DNA of 64,000 bases, taken from NCBI GenBank assembly GCA_037308085.1, contig CP147779.1:960001-1024000 (forward strand). The letters run 5' to 3'. The notes below the pieces were generated by a model that saw nothing but the letters and a program-made list of their open reading frames with translations, did no database searches and was not told the origin of the DNA. The position numbers and the translations under genes are program-made. Below, one piece after another: positions 4,165-23,124 of this stretch (position 1 is the first letter of the stretch; each line of letters opens with the position of its first letter). This stretch comes from Promethearchaeati archaeon SRVP18_Atabeyarchaeia-1 (GTDB taxonomy: Archaea > Asgardarchaeota > Atabeyarchaeia > Atabeyarchaeales > Atabeyarchaeaceae).

Positions 4165-4256
4165 AGCTGGGAGCAGGAATCGAACCTGCGTGAACGGGTT
4201 TCTATCAGCTCTTAGTTCCTCTGCAGCCCGTTGCCTCTCTCCTAGGCTATCCCAGC
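4165..4256 (-). tRNA. tRNA-Cys(GCA) with a 21-nt intron at position 37/38 (intron 4200-4220)
   Basis: Minus strand: GCTGGGA/TCCCAGC acceptor stem, GCCT/AGGC D stem, ACGGG-CTGCAG[intron]A-CCCGT anticodon arm, GCAGG-TTCGATT-CCTGC T arm, U73 discriminator. Confidence 0.95.
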
Positions 4257-4446
4257 TCACACAAGGGGGAATCGCTGATGAGTCCGGTACCAAGCACATA
4301 TCCAAGACCTGTTCTTTAAAGTTTTGTCGAGCATGTGAGGACAGACTGAAAACTCTAATAATTGAAGAATTATAGTGTCATTAGAGCAGCCCTTAGGCTG
4401 GCAGGTGCCATTGTTTATTCGATGGCAGTAGCGAGGTAGTTCTCCA

Positions 4447-5685
4447 TTGTGGTTCGATTCAATTGATCTTGATCGATACAGGAACCTCCACAGAAGGATT
4501 AGTGGAAACCTCATCAACGTCAACCCGATTCAAACGGGTGGCGTCATACCCCTTGAGGCACGGAAAGCGTTACAGGAATTTCTGGATGGCTACTCTGTAT
4601 GCGATTTTTGCAGTGTGCCTGGCGGTGGAAGGCTTGACTCAATCAAGGACCCTCCTATCAGCAATTTCATGATCGATTTGGCGAAGTTTGTAGATATGGA
4701 CGAAGTTCGCGTTGTTCACGGGGCAAGGGAGGGGATATTCGCGGTAATGCATTCAATCGCAAGACCAGGTGAAACAGTAGTCGTCGATAGTCTCGCTCAC
4801 TATACGACCTACGTTGCCGCCGAAAATGCGGGGCTTAACGTTGTAGAGGTGCCGCATAGCGGTCCTCCATTCTTCCGGCTCACATCAGAAGGTTTCGCCG
4901 AGAAGGTAGAGGAAGTAAGGCAGACAACTGGCAGGAACCCTTCCTTAATTGTGCTCTCCCACGTCGACTACGAATATGGCAACCTAGCAGATGCTGGCGG
5001 TATTGGCAGAACCGCAAGAAAGTATGGCATACCATTCCTTCTAAACTGCGCTTACACCGTTGGAAGAATGCCCGTCTCTGGTCGCCAGCTCCAAGCAGAT
5101 TTCCTGGTCGCGTCGGCACACAAATCCATGGCCACTTGTGGTCCTGCCGGTCTCTTGGCAGCCACGTCTGACTTCGCAAAGCGAACCTTCAGAAGATCCA
5201 CAAATACAGGCACCTGGTCTGGGAAGAAACTTGGTAAGAAAGACGTTGAATTCCTAGGTTGCACTTTAAGGGGTCTTCCAGTGGTTTCGATGATGGCGAG
5301 CTTTCCTCATGTAGTTGAACGAGTGAGGAAATGGGAGGATGAAGTCAACAAAGCTAGATGGTTCGCCAGTCAGCTTGAGAGGATTGAAGGAATCAAACAA
5401 CTCGGCGATAAACCACACAACCATGACATCACCTTCTACGATTCTCCCCCCTTGGCGAAAATAGCTGAAAAACACAAGAGAAAAGGTTTCTTCCTCTACG
5501 ATGAACTTAAGGAGAAAGGCATTATGGGTCTTGAGCCTGGGCTCTCAAAGTCCTTCCACCTCAGCACGTACATGCTGACATGGGATCAGGTCAGGAGTGT
5601 CGCCGATGCCTTCAGATTCGTAGCCGAGAAGTACTCCATGCCTCACGAGAGAGAGAACATCAAGTCTCAATTGTTGTCAAACTAG
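4447..5685 (+). CDS. pscS: Sep-tRNA:Cys-tRNA synthase (SepCysS)
   Basis: INVNPIQTGG, DGYSVCDFC, GAREG, AHYTT, SAHKSM (PLP lysine), LGCT; divergent from tRNA-Cys. Confidence 0.92.
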   Translation: MWFDSIDLDRYRNLHRRISGNLINVNPIQTGGVIPLEARKALQEFLDGYSVCDFCSVPGGGRLDSIKDPPISNFMIDLAKFVDMDEVRVVHGAREGIFAVMHSIARPGETVVVDSLAHYTTYVAAENAGLNVVEVPHSGPPFFRLTSEGFAEKVEEVRQTTGRNPSLIVLSHVDYEYGNLADAGGIGRTARKYGIPFLLNCAYTVGRMPVSGRQLQADFLVASAHKSMATCGPAGLLAATSDFAKRTFRRSTNTGTWSGKKLGKKDVEFLGCTLRGLPVVSMMASFPHVVERVRKWEDEVNKARWFASQLERIEGIKQLGDKPHNHDITFYDSPPLAKIAEKHKRKGFFLYDELKEKGIMGLEPGLSKSFHLSTYMLTWDQVRSVADAFRFVAEKYSMPHERENIKSQLLSN

Positions 5686-20015: not shown

Positions 20016-20893
20016 CTACATCTGCGCCGTCTTCAGAGCGTCCTTGCATTCACAGGCTCTATCCTTCGGAATTCTTGGTATCACGCTGAAAAGCAGCTTA
20101 TTCACATTCTCAATGTTCTGCTTCATGGATCTGACAACCTGCTCGGCTGTAACGGGTTTCAGACCATAAACATCAGTGTCGGTGGGCATCGCTATGTTTG
20201 CAAAACATATTTCTGCTTCTCTAGCAAGAGCGCACTCAGGGTAGGCCGTCAATGCGGGGCGGGCAGGCCCTACTTGCTTCACGCCTTTCCGACGACATCC
20301 CATCCCTGCCTCTTATAGAACAGCGACTCCGCCCTCGTGGAGAACCTTGGTCCCTCGATGCAAACATACTCGAATGAGTCATGATCCTTGGAGTTCTCCT
20401 TGGAGTGAATTTTCATGCCGAGTTTCACAGCCGTGTCCACAACGATCTTCCTCAGCTCCGGACAAAACGGCTCAGCAAAGGAAACATGCCCTACCAGCCC
20501 TCCATCGAAGAATGTTTGGTTCATTCGTGGCGCAGCCGTGAAACTTACTATCTGGTCACAGACAACGAATTCACCTGGTTTGATTCGCTCAGGCTGTAGG
20601 CTCCCAACTGCAGCCGGGCTTATTATTCTGGAGACTCCGAGAGCTTTCATAGCCCAGACGTTGGCCCTGAAGTTGATCTTGTGCGGCGGAATCCGATGAC
20701 CCCTTTGGTGGCGAACCAAGAACGCCACTTTCCTTTCTCCAACGTAACCTACTATGACGTTGTCGCTTGTCGCTCCGTAGGGTGTGTAGACTTTGAGTTC
20801 TTTTGCTTCCTTTATTATCTTTGGGTCGTAGTTGCCCGAACCTGCAAAAACCCCGATTTCTGCAGTTTCACCTGGATCTATTAAACCAATCAT
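20016..20893 (-). CDS. mtnP: 5'-methylthioadenosine phosphorylase, interrupted: join(20893-20287, 20251-20016), 280 aa when joined
   Basis: GSG, TPYG, RH...H, AVGSL, EPFC, EGPRFSTRAES in the first part; TAYPE..LAREAEIC and TDTD in the second part; the join restores DVVGMTAYPE. Confidence 0.9.
20252..20286 (-). other. Candidate bulge-helix-loop (tRNA-endonuclease-type) intron in mtnP mRNA
   Basis: 35-nt insert AGGCGTGAAGCAAGTAGGGCCTGCCCGCCCCGCAT; cuts at AA|A and AU|U give GGA ATG ACG. Confidence 0.72.
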
Positions 20894-21131: not shown

Positions 21132-23124
21132 TTAGTTAGTGGTTGCCATCGTCCCCGCATCAAGTCGGTTTTTCTGCTCATCTGGTAGTGTATGGGTTAC
21201 GTCAATGCATCTCGGGAGCTTTACTAAGCCGCGATGGGGGCCAAGGTGATCCTTCGTCGCCGAAGGCTTGTCTTAGCCACTCTCGTTTCATCTCCTTTGA
21301 TCCCTGCAGTATGAATGTAGGTGTGTCTGGGTTCTGCTTAACGACTTCGCCAGTTATTTCCCCTGACCTTCGCAGTGTGTGTCCAATGATTTCAGTTGAT
21401 GTGCGCACATTCGCAGCTCTGCCATCATCATATTCTCTATTGAGTATGTTTACTCTGCCGAAAATGTTCGTTAATGATTCCACGATCCTGATTCTTTGTT
21501 CTGTATCATTGTTCACATAGGCGAATATTGGTCCTCTGCCTTGAGATTCGGAGAGTGAACCGTCTGAGAATCCTGCTGCTACCAGTCTCGCTCCGTCGAA
21601 GGTATCCAGTCTAAAGGGGAGTTTCGGGTTCTCAACCGCTCTTTGATGTCCTATTGCTTTGATGGAGCTGTTAAGCTCGTTGAGATTTCTGTCGAGGTAT
21701 GTCAGGATTGGAATTAGTTTATCAACCCTCATACTGTCCAGTCGATCATTTAGCTGCTCTCTCAGGTAATTGTTGCACAAGTGTGTTCCTCTCTCTTCTA
21801 ACTCTTGGACGAGTGCGGTTTTTCCCCCTGCCTTATCTATTGCAGCCATAAGTAATTCATGTTTGTACTCTTTGTCAAGAAATACTTCAACAGTTGGTGG
21901 TAGTGCGTACCATGGTGTTTCGTAGGGTGGGCTTATCCTTTCTTCTCTTGGTATGTGGAGGAATTCTTCTCCCTGACTTGTTTTGTATCTGTAGAGGTCT
22001 AAGTCTCCTATCCGCTCCTTCTCTATTGTTGTGATTTTGTAGTTCTGGTTTTCATCGGTTATTGTGAATCCGTCTCCTTCATTGAGCTTCAACGTAGTCT
22101 TGTCCCGTGGCTTTTCTCGTACGCTTGCTTTCTCCTTTGGCGGTTCTGGTGATAGGACTATGCTGTCAGTTTTCACCCTCAATTTATCGGGTTCTTCTTC
22201 TCCTCTTCTCGTCAGTAGTTCGGCTGTGATGCTCTTGCCGAGGCCTATTGCTCCCTCTTCAATTCTTCCCGTTGCGAGTCTTTCTCCTCTATCTGTCTGG
22301 ATAACCATCTTCGCATGGTTGCCGTCTCTTGCGTTGAGCCCGAGTTCTCCAAGTATGCCGTGGACTTGTATCTTCATCTCGCCGTTGGTCGTGGTCGGTG
22401 TGATTAGGATGCATTGCTTCCAAGGTGGGTCCTCAGGTTTCCTCACATTTAGAACCTTAACATTTAGTTTGTCTCCTACCTTGATGTCCATGCATTCAAC
22501 GTATGCTTTCATGATGTTTGCTCTTGTTCCCTTTCCCAATGTTAGCCCAGCGATGGCTTGAACCCCCTGCTTCTCGAGCAGTGCCATCATTATGTCCCCG
22601 CGGTGGAACTCCACGTTTGCCATAGGGTTGAGCTTCAAGTAGTATGTCTGCCGGGCTTGGCTGTAATTCACTGTTGCGCCGGGGTTTAGGGTGCTCTTAG
22701 TAAACGCATCTAAACTGTAGACTGCTCCCTTCCACTTTACGGCTATGTCTTGGTCTTCTGGTGATTGAAGGTCTCTCAATGCTTCCCCTAAGTCCTTCCC
22801 AGCCATGCCTGATAGTCTTTGTAGATCCTCTAAGGTGATGTGTATTCTGTTGCTTTCCCAGCAGGTTACCTCGCTTTGAACGTATCTAAGCTCATCAGCA
22901 AGCTCGCGTCGGTTGAGGCCCATTTCTGTGCGCCACTGTCTAACTAATTCGCCTGCACCAACCACCCTAGCATCCTGAACTCTTATCTTGTTCAGTTCGG
23001 TTGCATCGGTTGCTTGTTCTCGCGCCGTTCTGTCGGGGTCATTGAGGCGCCTTATGTTAGTTCTTGAAGAAGCATCGCCTCCGCCTCTGGCAACGCTGCT
23101 CCTAAACTCGACATGGCGGGTCAT
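21132..23124 (-). pseudogene. XRE-HTH plus LAGLIDADG-like nuclease protein, C-terminus frameshifted
   Basis: N-terminal Cro/C1 HTH (RQWRTEMGLNRRELADELRY...WE); motifs LVAAGFSDGS and LRQAFGDEGS; ORF stops at 21202 just after a 5-nt homopolymer run (21236-21240), while an alternative frame continues HRGLVKLPRCIDVT. Confidence 0.55.

What the first reader, a model, noticed from the sequence alone, without database searches (positions are those of the whole stretch)
20216..20310. Candidate tRNA-endonuclease-type (bulge-helix-loop) intron in a protein-coding gene, splitting the conserved Met codon of MTA phosphorylase
Seen in sequence: mtnP appears as two ORFs. On the - strand it reads ...GAT GTC GTC GGA A[AGGCGTGAAGCAAGTAGGGCCTGCCCGCCCCGCAT]TG ACG GCC TAC. 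Removing the 35 nt (20286-20252) gives GGA ATG ACG, i.e. DVV-G-M-T-AYPE, and one clean 280-aa ORF. The predicted fold has a long exon-exon helix (CAGGGAUGGGAUGUC / GACGGCCUACCCUG), a central helix UCGG/CCGC (three Watson-Crick pairs plus U.C), a 3-nt bulge AA|A, an intron helix GGCG/CGCC, and AU|U opposite a single G. Both junctions fall after the second nucleotide of a 3-nt bulge or loop. There is no target-site duplication, and the rest of the gene shows no decay. Established: the G/N-M-T motif lines the MTAP active site; the archaeal splicing endonuclease (EndA) cuts BHB/BHL motifs after the second bulge nucleotide; the well-characterised archaeal mRNA intron is in crenarchaeal cbf5, also at a catalytic codon. 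Inference: this is a spliced mRNA intron in a metabolic gene, so MTA salvage would depend on EndA/RtcB splicing. Unspliced RNA stops two codons later (TGA), so splicing could work as an on/off switch.
Basis: partly seen in the sequence, partly recalled or inferred. Interest (0 to 1): 0.92.

Follow-up and report, generated by a model that had tools for sequence, protein, structure and literature searches.

The report
tRNA-type intron inside archaeal mtnP gene
The only methylthioadenosine phosphorylase gene of this Asgard archaeon (Atabeyarchaeia) is interrupted, inside its active-site Met codon, by a conserved 34-39-base intron of the kind normally found in archaeal tRNAs; such introns are rare in archaeal protein-coding genes, and gene callers report this enzyme as two fragments.

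Summary
mtnP (- strand, 20016-20893) is broken by 35 nt (20252-20286). Removing them joins GGA A|TG ACG, giving G-M-T and one 280-aa ORF.

The core reading, a BHB-type intron cut by EndA and sealed by RtcB, is strongly supported by comparative evidence:
- 15 distinct Atabeyarchaeia sequences carry an insert at the same nucleotide. Lengths are 34-39 nt, covering all three frame classes.
- The intron stem shows compensatory changes.
- Both exons are under strong purifying selection (dN/dS 0.01-0.07, dS often above 1).
- All homologs at 66% identity or below are uninterrupted and read V-G-M-T.
- The splice points required by protein homology are the ones the rule "cut after bulge nucleotide 2, 4-bp spacer" predicts.
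- The genome encodes an (alpha-beta)2 EndA with the broad-specificity loop, and RtcB.

The motif is relaxed (3 Watson-Crick pairs plus U.C; 3' AUU faces a G).

No RNA data could be obtained, so splicing itself is inferred. The on/off-switch idea has no support. I confirmed three more genes in this genome with such introns (ahcY, gatE, a RuBisCO-like gene), so this is one of a small set. This scan had already flagged such introns elsewhere in this genome.

It is a new member of a known kind (cbf5-type archaeal pre-mRNA introns).

The parts
20287..20893 (-). mtnP exon 1: ATG at 20893 to GGA A at 20290-20287. It ends with the first base of the split Met codon.
   Evidence: ORF list. NF006334 profile positions 5-189. 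dN/dS 0.026-0.055 across relatives.
20252..20286 (-). 35-nt BHB-type intron. It begins with the third A of the AAA bulge and ends with the second nucleotide of the AUU bulge.
   Evidence: Homologous inserts of 34-39 nt lie at the same nucleotide in 15 distinct sequences.
20016..20251 (-). mtnP exon 2: TG of the Met codon, 77 codons, and the stop at 20016-20018.
   Evidence: NF006334 profile 192-266 from residue 2. Thr1 aligns with human MTAP Thr197. dN/dS 0.010-0.069.
20289..20292 (-). Central helix H, 5' strand (UCGG, exon 1).
   Evidence: It pairs with 20254-20257. Pair C-G becomes U-A or U.G in other sequences.
20286..20288 (-). 5' bulge AAA. The predicted cut lies between 20287 and 20286.
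   Evidence: Invariant in 15 sequences. Unpaired in both the single-sequence fold and the alignment fold.
20282..20285 (-). Intron stem h', 5' strand (GGCG).
   Evidence: It pairs with 20258-20261. 4 of the 6 stem pairs show compensatory double changes across the 15 sequences.
20258..20261 (-). Intron stem h', 3' strand (CGCC).
20254..20257 (-). Central helix H, 3' strand (CCGC, the 3' end of the intron).
   Evidence: The outermost position is U.C here and U.G in 2 of 15 sequences.
20251..20253 (-). 3' bulge or loop AUU. The predicted cut lies between 20252 and 20251. The middle base varies (U, C or G) in relatives.
   Evidence: U20251 can alternatively pair with G20293.
20293..20308 (-). Exon-exon helix, 5' strand (coding QGWDVV).
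   Evidence: Pairs are mostly invariant because they are also constrained by coding.
20237..20250 (-). Exon-exon helix, 3' strand (coding TAYPE).

Best explanation
The 35 nt at 20252-20286 (- strand) are a bulge-helix-bulge-type intron in the mtnP pre-mRNA of an Atabeyarchaeia (Asgard) archaeon.

Proposed structure and mechanism:
- The transcript folds so that the end of exon 1 (UCGG) pairs with the 3' end of the intron (CCGC).
- An AAA bulge and a conserved intron stem lie on one side. An AUU loop and a long exon-exon helix lie on the other.
- The heterotetrameric (alpha-beta)2 splicing endonuclease cuts after the second nucleotide of each bulge.
- RtcB joins the exons to GGA-AUG-ACG. This restores the active-site Met (human Met196) and a 280-aa S-methyl-5'-thioadenosine phosphorylase.
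- The intron is probably released as a small circle.

What is shown:
- the DNA insert, its exact position and the predicted fold;
- conservation of position and structure, with covariation;
- selection on both exons;
- presence of the splicing enzymes.

What is inferred:
- that cleavage and ligation occur in vivo at these bonds;
- that splicing is constitutive rather than regulated.

The intron was most likely gained at the base of the Atabeyarchaeia clade. It probably entered the loop of a hairpin that the coding sequence already formed, as part of the BHB intron proliferation seen in this lineage's tRNA genes.
For: (1) Junction. One residue of the MTAP profile is missing between the pieces, and it corresponds to human Met196. 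Only the cut A|...|TG yields ATG.

(2) Geometry. That cut is the one given by the BHB rule: a 4-position central helix and cleavage between bulge nucleotides 2 and 3. The rule is stated in PMC2738675. A relaxed motif at a fixed position and length has a frequency of 7.3e-4 in this genome.

(3) Conservation. 15 distinct sequences carry an insert at the same nucleotide. They come from G000, a same-genus MAG (LC30), Ca. Atabeyarchaeum deiterrae and 12 metagenome contigs. Lengths are 34, 35, 36, 37, 38 and 39 nt, so all frame classes occur. The variants that keep the frame contain stop codons.

(4) Structure.
- RNAalifold recovers the exon helix, central helix, AAA bulge and intron stem without being given a structure.
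- 89.9% of cells are paired, against 35-51% when partners are slid.
- There are 19 double-change cells against 9.4 +/- 2.7 in shuffles (0 of 500 shuffles reach it).
- 4 of 6 intron-stem pairs change on both sides, and one central-helix pair goes C-G to U-A or U.G.

(5) Selection. dN/dS is 0.026-0.055 for exon 1 and 0.010-0.069 for exon 2, with dS mostly above 1.

(6) Distribution. All homologs at 87% identity or more are called as 205-215-aa truncations. All at 66% or less are full length (284-286 aa) and read VVGMT or VIGMT without interruption.

(7) Machinery.
- The EndA alpha subunit is closest to the A. pernix catalytic subunit 3P1Z_B (E 5e-46). It keeps the catalytic His and the Lys44-equivalent of the broad-specificity loop.
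- A second paralog lacks the His and is the beta subunit.
- RtcB is present.
- PMC5829648 reports (alpha-beta)2 EndA with the L1 loop across Asgard.

(8) Precedent in the same genome. ahcY, gatE and a RuBisCO-like gene are interrupted by 34-, 41- and 22-nt inserts with BHB motifs, and Pfam matches continue across the breaks.

(9) The insert is present in independently assembled contigs.
Against: - No spliced transcript, circular intron or junction-spanning peptide has been seen.
- The motif is not canonical. In 13 of 15 sequences the outermost central-helix position is U.C or U.U. The third 3' bulge nucleotide can pair with the opposing G, which gives a 1x3 internal loop.
- The fold energy of the single sequence is ordinary for its composition (z = -0.22).
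- The sequences are related, so shuffle-based covariation statistics overstate significance.
- In the DNA the codon just before ACG is TTG in 11 of 15 sequences, so gene callers can start a separate 78-aa ORF there.
Confidence: 0.84

Rival explanations
1. Split gene. The enzyme is made as two polypeptides that assemble: a 204-aa N fragment ending at the stop inside the insert, and a 78-aa C fragment initiated at the TTG just before ACG, which would supply the Met. The insert would be an intercistronic spacer.
For: TTG-ACG is in frame with exon 2 in the DNA. Gene callers annotate a 78-aa ORF directly after the truncated gene in several metagenome contigs. GTG occupies that codon in 2 sequences.
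Against: - That codon is CTG in 2 of 15 sequences, including the complete Ca. Atabeyarchaeum deiterrae genome, and it is never ATG.
- The variation fits a free second bulge nucleotide followed by an invariant U.
- No Shine-Dalgarno-like sequence lies upstream; that stretch is the conserved CCCCGC strand of the helices.
- A spacer gives no reason for the covarying stem or the invariant AAA bulge.
- The tails of the N fragment vary freely in length and sequence, from 2 to 13 residues.
- The break lies inside an active-site motif, not at a domain boundary.
Confidence: 0.07
2. Translational recoding. Ribosomes pass the insert by programmed frameshifting, bypassing or stop-codon readthrough, so there is no RNA splicing.
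For: An otherwise intact gene has a short internal interruption next to a stable hairpin. Hairpins accompany known recoding sites. PMC2738675 notes that the cbf5 cases were once confused with frameshifting.
Against: - Insert lengths of 34-39 nt need a different frame change in different relatives: +1, -1, or 0 with an in-frame stop. No single recoding event fits them all.
- No matching take-off and landing codons flank the insert.
- Any read-through product would insert 11-13 unconserved residues into the G-M-T active-site strand and would lack the Met.
Confidence: 0.03
3. Inactivated gene or artefact. The insert is a lesion in a decaying pseudogene, or an assembly error.
For: The gene is formally disrupted, and automatic annotation yields truncated proteins.
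Against: - dN/dS is 0.01-0.07 on both sides of the break over divergences with dS above 1.
- The same insertion point is kept in 15 distinct sequences.
- There are no other frameshifts or stops.
- It is the only MTAP match in the genome.
- Contigs from runs of two studies contain the insert unchanged.
Confidence: 0.02

Closest known systems
cbf5 pre-mRNA intron of Crenarchaeota (Desulfurococcales, Sulfolobales): Watanabe et al. 2002; Yoshinari et al. 2006; Yokobori et al. 2009, PMC2738675
   Same: Both are short introns in a protein-coding gene, flanked by a BHB-like structure. In both, the predicted cuts lie between bulge nucleotides 2 and 3. Both hosts have a hetero-oligomeric EndA. Both are lineage-specific and conserved at one site, and both confuse gene prediction.
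   Different: The gene differs (a metabolic enzyme, mtnP, rather than an RNA-modification enzyme) and so does the phylum (Asgard, class Atabeyarchaeia). Here the motif is relaxed at the 3' site. The host genome carries several such mRNA introns, whereas the cbf5 paper stated that no gene other than cbf5 had been confirmed. Splicing of cbf5 was shown by cDNA and in vitro cleavage; here it is inferred.
Non-canonical tRNA introns of Atabeyarchaeia and Freyarchaeia (Valentin-Alvarado et al. 2024, PMC11291895; bioRxiv 10.64898/2026.10.13.758758)
   Same: The organisms are the same and so is the presumed machinery (EndA with the L1/CSL loop, RtcB). Size range and BHB or relaxed-BHB boundaries match. 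Both appear to sit where the host RNA can form the motif.
   Different: The host RNA here is an mRNA, so splice-site precision is constrained by the reading frame and an active-site codon. Neither paper mentions introns in protein-coding genes.
BHB introns in ahcY, gatE and a RuBisCO-like gene of the same genome
   Same: These are 22-41-nt inserts in otherwise intact genes. Excision by the same rule restores the frame, and the Pfam match continues across the break.
   Different: The ahcY and gatE motifs are strict hBHBh'. The mtnP motif has a mismatched outer central-helix pair and an AUU loop facing a G. I found no sequence similarity between these introns by eye, and I did not test it formally.
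Unconventional cytoplasmic splicing of HAC1/XBP1 mRNA (Ire1 plus tRNA ligase/RtcB) in eukaryotes
   Same: Both are non-spliceosomal, protein-catalysed excisions of a short mRNA intron at stem-loop structures. In both, ligation is by tRNA-splicing ligase, and removal changes the reading frame.
   Different: The endonuclease differs (Ire1 rather than EndA/Sen), and that event is stress-regulated. No regulation is shown here. This comparison rests on general knowledge.

Membership tests
Archaeal BHB (EndA-dependent) intron | Two 3-nt bulges on opposite strands, separated by a 4-bp central helix formed by the exon 1 end and the intron 3' end. | tested here: met
   Met in relaxed form. The AAA bulge is invariant. 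The central helix UCGG/CCGC has 3 Watson-Crick pairs plus U.C; this position is U.G, giving a full 4 pairs, in 2 of 15 sequences. The 3' AUU faces a single G and its last U can pair with it. By the Marck-Grosjean classes quoted, this is 'relaxed' in G000 and HBh' in the two U.G sequences.
Archaeal BHB (EndA-dependent) intron | Cleavage between bulge nucleotides 2 and 3 at both sites yields the functional mature RNA. | tested here: met
   The rule gives GGAA|UGACG, which reads GGA AUG ACG. This restores the frame, the single missing profile position and the Met196 equivalent. The same holds for all 15 sequences despite lengths of 34-39 nt.
Archaeal BHB (EndA-dependent) intron | Flanking helices h (exon-exon) and h' (intron) are maintained in evolution. 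| tested here: met
   In h', 4 of 6 pairs show double changes and 90% of cells are paired. In h, 93% of cells are paired but pairs are mostly invariant because of coding constraint. Overall, 0 of 500 shuffles reach the observed covariation, with the caveat that the sequences are related.
Archaeal BHB (EndA-dependent) intron | The host encodes a splicing endonuclease able to cut relaxed motifs, and an RtcB ligase. | tested here: met
   There are two EndA paralogs. The alpha subunit has the catalytic His and the CSL Lys44 equivalent. The beta subunit lacks the His. RtcB scores 583 bits.
Archaeal BHB (EndA-dependent) intron | The spliced RNA and excised (circular) intron exist in vivo, and EndA cleaves the site in vitro. 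| not testable with these tools
   No RNA run holds the locus. The one metatranscriptome laid gave no cover. No full-length protein at 87% identity or more, as expected from assembled spliced cDNA, is in the protein collection.
S-methyl-5'-thioadenosine phosphorylase (MTAP/mtnP, NF006334, TIGR01694) | A full-length match to the family profile that includes the active-site G/N-M-T segment. | tested here: met
   The two pieces cover profile positions 5-189 and 192-266 with one residue missing between them. Their summed score of about 319 bits is below the 382-bit equivalog cut-off, which is defined for a whole protein. The closest solved structures are archaeal and human MTAPs.
Split (two-polypeptide) gene | The downstream piece has its own conserved start codon and initiation signal. 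| tested here: not met
   The codon before ACG is TTG in 11 sequences, GTG in 2 and CTG in 2. It is never ATG, and no Shine-Dalgarno-like motif is conserved upstream.
Self-splicing group I/II intron or intein | A ribozyme core of hundreds of nucleotides, or an in-frame protein-splicing domain. | tested here: not met
   The insert is 34-39 nt. It is out of frame or stop-containing. There is no Rfam hit at the locus.

The most novel reading that the evidence does not exclude
EndA/RtcB splicing is a regulated step that co-controls recycling of S-adenosylmethionine by-products in Atabeyarchaeia. The intron-bearing genes confirmed here include mtnP (MTA), ahcY (S-adenosylhomocysteine) and a RuBisCO-like gene that may belong to a salvage route. 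An untested note adds pcm, a SAM-dependent methyltransferase. If splicing efficiency responds to a signal, unspliced transcripts would give truncated inactive proteins. That would be an archaeal analogue of the HAC1/XBP1 unconventional-splicing switch, in the closest prokaryotic relatives of eukaryotes.
Probability: 0.08. Interest if true: 0.92.

Novelty: new member of a known kind. Interest (0 to 1): 0.7.

Why it matters

This case has strong comparative support. It lies in a core metabolic gene of an Asgard lineage whose tRNA genes are almost all interrupted, and at least three further genes of the same genome are interrupted in the same way.

Consequences:
- BHB introns can colonise mRNAs when the endonuclease is permissive. 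That gives a tractable prokaryotic model of intron gain in coding sequences, in relatives of the eukaryotic ancestor.
- Atabeyarchaeia metabolic reconstructions that treat such genes as truncated, split or pseudogenes are wrong. Public gene calls give mtnP as a fragment of about 207 aa and one of 78 aa.
- Methionine/adenine salvage in these organisms would depend on the tRNA-splicing machinery.

The prediction is directly testable with existing wetland metatranscriptomes.

Tried and rejected
(1) RNA evidence. The look-up of sequencing runs listed no RNA holder. The single metatranscriptome run laid had no contig on the stretch. This gives no information either way.

(2) Genome-wide scan. I searched for BHB motifs whose excision merges two coding ORFs.
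- Background from adjacent same-strand genes swamped it.
- Counts were the same whether the 3' cut was at the true position or shifted by 1-2 nt (strict motif 122 against 103-118; relaxed 1573 against 1448-1537).
- The scan therefore cannot estimate how many mRNA introns exist.
- Of 15 strict candidates checked with Pfam, 12 were not shown to be interrupted: 10 were junctions between different genes and 2 gave no usable match on both sides. Three were real interrupted genes.

(3) Candidate in the window. A strict motif at 4633-4670 (+) proved false, because the SepCysS ORF runs through it in one frame.

(4) Apparent second break. In some Asgard genomes the MTAP match stops near profile position 221. 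This is an in-frame Cys-rich insertion, not an intron.

(5) Other noted introns. I could not relocate the earlier-noted rpl39e, pcm, valS and EndoQ introns with my scanner settings. They remain untested by me.

(6) Fold energy. The single-sequence fold energy is uninformative as evidence (z = -0.22).

(7) Spliced cDNA. I looked for one in the protein collection. No full-length homolog above 66% identity was found. This is absence of evidence only.

Full report
**Observation**

On the - strand the window reads GAT GTC GTC GGA A, then 35 nt (20286 down to 20252), then TG ACG GCC TAC.
- The upstream ORF (20279-20893, 204 aa) ends ...DVVGKA-stop. A second ORF covers 20016-20303 in another frame.
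- The NCBIfam MTAP model NF006334 matches the upstream piece at profile positions 5-189, ending at the Gly. It matches the downstream piece from position 192 at its second residue. Exactly one profile position lies between the pieces.
- Against solved structures, the first residue of the downstream piece (Thr) aligns with Thr197 of human MTAP. The missing residue is therefore the Met196 equivalent.
- Only the excision A|35 nt|TG recreates ATG. It gives a 280-aa ORF.

**Fold**

RNAfold of window:20232-20312:- returns the described architecture as the minimum-free-energy structure:
- a long exon-exon helix;
- a central helix CGG/CCG, preceded by an unpaired U opposite C;
- an AAA bulge;
- the intron stem GGCG/CGCC.

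The energy is not exceptional for the composition (z = -0.22), so energy alone proves nothing. What matters is geometry. Counting four positions of central helix plus two bulge nucleotides on each strand puts the cuts between A20287 and A20286 and between U20252 and U20251. Those are the bonds that protein homology demands.

The rule that cuts fall between the second and third bulge residues is stated for the cbf5 introns in PMC2738675. In my scan of this genome, a relaxed BHB motif at a given position and length has a frequency of 7.3e-4, and a strict motif 5.5e-5.

**Organism and machinery**

The window is part of a single 2.81-Mb contig.
- The same-family genome that shares the feature is Ca. 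Atabeyarchaeum deiterrae, isolate SRVP18_Atabeyarchaeia-2. The same-genus genome is MAG LC30. The organism is therefore an Atabeyarchaeia, an Asgard archaeon.
- That lineage was reported to have introns in 92-95% of its tRNA genes, often at non-canonical positions. The paper does not mention protein-coding introns (PMC11291895).
- The genome has two EndA paralogs.
  - One is closest to the A. pernix catalytic subunit (3P1Z_B, E 5e-46). It keeps the GPGIDHAPF His and an ungapped loop with a Lys at the position of A. pernix Lys44. That loop and residue were shown to confer broad substrate specificity.
  - The other paralog lacks the His and is the structural beta subunit.
- RtcB is encoded just beyond the window.
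- This agrees with the published statement that Asgard archaea have (alpha-beta)2 EndA with the L1 loop (PMC5829648).

**Comparative evidence**

A search of 61 genomes of the phylum showed the MTAP match split at profile 189/190 in G000 and in Atabeyarchaeia-2. The same-genus MAG has an in-frame stop at the same place.

Reading the DNA, and adding metagenome contigs and members of the truncated protein clusters, gave 15 distinct sequences. All have an insert at exactly the same nucleotide.
- Lengths are 34, 35, 36, 37, 38 and 39 nt, so every frame class occurs. The variants that are multiples of three carry in-frame stops.
- Precise excision gives GGA ATG AC[G/A] in every case.
- Every homolog at 87% identity or more in the 5.8-billion-protein collection is a 205-215-aa truncated call.
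- Every homolog at 66% or less is full length, 284-286 aa. These come from Jordarchaeia, Freyrarchaeia, Thorarchaeota, Bathyarchaeota and others. Five of them, read at the DNA level, run through VVGMT or VIGMT without interruption.
- The insert is thus a clade-wide, single-origin feature of Atabeyarchaeia.

**Structure conservation**

On the 15-sequence alignment (A2), RNAalifold predicts the exon helix, central helix, AAA bulge and intron stem on its own. Counting my explicit BHB structure gave:
- 89.9% of cells paired, against 35-51% when partners are slid by 1-3 columns;
- 19 cells with changes on both sides, against 9.4 +/- 2.7 in shuffles (0 of 500 shuffles reach it);
- compensatory changes in 4 of the 6 intron-stem pairs, for example G-C, G.U and A-U at one pair;
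- one central-helix pair that goes from C-G to U.G and U-A;
- an outermost central-helix position that is U.C or U.U in 13 sequences and U.G in 2.

The loop is free to vary in sequence and length. The AAA bulge and the U that begins exon 2 are invariant, while the middle 3' bulge base is U, C or G. The sequences are related, so the shuffle statistic overstates significance. The slid-partner control and the multiple independent pair types do not depend on that.

**Selection**

Pairwise Nei-Gojobori estimates on six sequences give dN/dS of 0.026-0.055 for exon 1 and 0.010-0.069 for exon 2, with synonymous divergence mostly above 1.
- The downstream exon has therefore been translated in the predicted frame throughout the clade's history while the insert was present. 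This excludes a pseudogene.
- It is the only MTAP match in the genome.
- Contigs assembled independently from runs of two studies contain the insert without variants, so it is not an assembly artefact. Two of those runs may be the genome's own source.

**Rivals**

*Split gene.* This is what gene callers implicitly propose: they start a 78-aa ORF at the TTG that precedes ACG.
- That codon is CTG in two lineages, including a complete genome, and it is never ATG.
- There is no conserved Shine-Dalgarno-like element.
- The covarying stem and the invariant bulge have no role in that model.
- I give it 0.07.

*Recoding.* It cannot accommodate three different frame relations. It would also leave out the Met and insert unconserved residues into an active-site strand. 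I give it 0.03.

*Pseudogene or artefact.* I give it 0.02.

**Context in the genome**

This scan's earlier notes list BHB introns in other genes of the same genome. I re-tested three:
- ahcY: 34 nt, strict hBHBh'. Pfam AdoHcyase_NAD ends at 161/162 before the break and AdoHcyase resumes after it.
- gatE: 41 nt, strict. GatB_N continues across the break.
- A RuBisCO-like gene: 22 nt. RuBisCO_large continues across the break.

My own unbiased motif-plus-ORF scan could not count such introns, because junctions between adjacent genes produce the same signal. Twelve of the 15 strict candidates were not shown to be interrupted genes: ten were junctions between different genes and two gave no usable Pfam match on both sides. 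The set is therefore small, a handful to a few tens, not hundreds.

mtnP is thus not a unique regulatory device. It is one member of a spill-over of BHB introns from tRNA genes into mRNAs. Nothing supports the on/off-switch idea, although it is not excluded.

**A possible origin**

The spliced sequence folds into a hairpin of -18.6 kcal/mol with the junction in the apical loop. Intronless homologs show a weaker version of the same hairpin, because the codons for V-V-G-M-T are partly self-complementary. This fits, but does not prove, insertion or fixation at a site that already offered an exon-exon helix. The tRNA-intron preprint concludes the same for tRNA genes.

**Novelty**

In the searchable literature I found no report of BHB introns in Asgard protein-coding genes or in mtnP. 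The cbf5 paper states that no other archaeal pre-mRNA intron had been confirmed. The mechanism is a known kind; the gene, the phylum and the multi-gene context are new. Direct RNA evidence is the missing piece.

Noticed in passing
window 4165-4256 (-): This is a tRNA gene (Rfam 49.4 bits; Cys-GCA by ARAGORN in intron mode) with an intron of about 21-24 nt at the anticodon loop. ARAGORN in default mode found no tRNA in the whole window. In intron mode it found only 22 tRNA genes in the 2.8-Mb genome, in line with the heavy interruption of tRNA genes reported for this lineage.
   Followed up: partly
window about 4400-5580 (+): SepCysS (Sep-tRNA:Cys-tRNA synthase, NF006810, 442 bits) lies next to the intron-containing tRNA-Cys gene. 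A strict BHB-like motif at 4633-4670 inside it is a chance match, because the ORF is continuous.
   Followed up: yes
genome C1:488226-488259 (+), L185: The ahcY gene (S-adenosylhomocysteine hydrolase) is interrupted by a 34-nt strict hBHBh' intron (CCAG.TG|T ... CTGG.AC|A). The Pfam domains continue across the break.
   Followed up: yes
genome C1:2219068-2219108 (+), L197; C1:2712760-2712781 (-), L201: gatE is interrupted by a 41-nt strict BHB insert, and a RuBisCO-like gene by a 22-nt relaxed one. Pfam GatB_N and RuBisCO_large matches lie on both sides of the respective breaks.
   Followed up: partly
genome-wide (G000): Several of the intron-bearing protein genes deal with S-adenosylmethionine by-products or use: mtnP, ahcY, possibly the RuBisCO-like gene, and pcm according to an untested note. 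This could be chance in a small set. It deserves a proper enrichment test once all mRNA introns are catalogued.
   Followed up: no
L022, L024, L026 (other Asgard genomes, family f9): MTAP carries an in-frame insertion of about 23 residues with two CxxC pairs (zinc-ribbon-like) near profile position 221. In the genome search it looked like a break in the gene.
   Followed up: partly
window 21202-23124 (-): A 640-aa ORF lies directly upstream of mtnP. It has an N-terminal HTH_3 domain and no other Pfam match. By eye, the C-terminal part has a LAGLIDADG-like segment (GFSDGSL); this was not confirmed.
   Followed up: no
L206-L216 (metagenome contigs): In all Atabeyarchaeia contigs read, mtnP is preceded on the same strand by an Endo_dU (PF01949) gene and followed by the same unannotated gene of about 360 aa. 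The neighbourhood is therefore conserved along with the intron.
   Followed up: no
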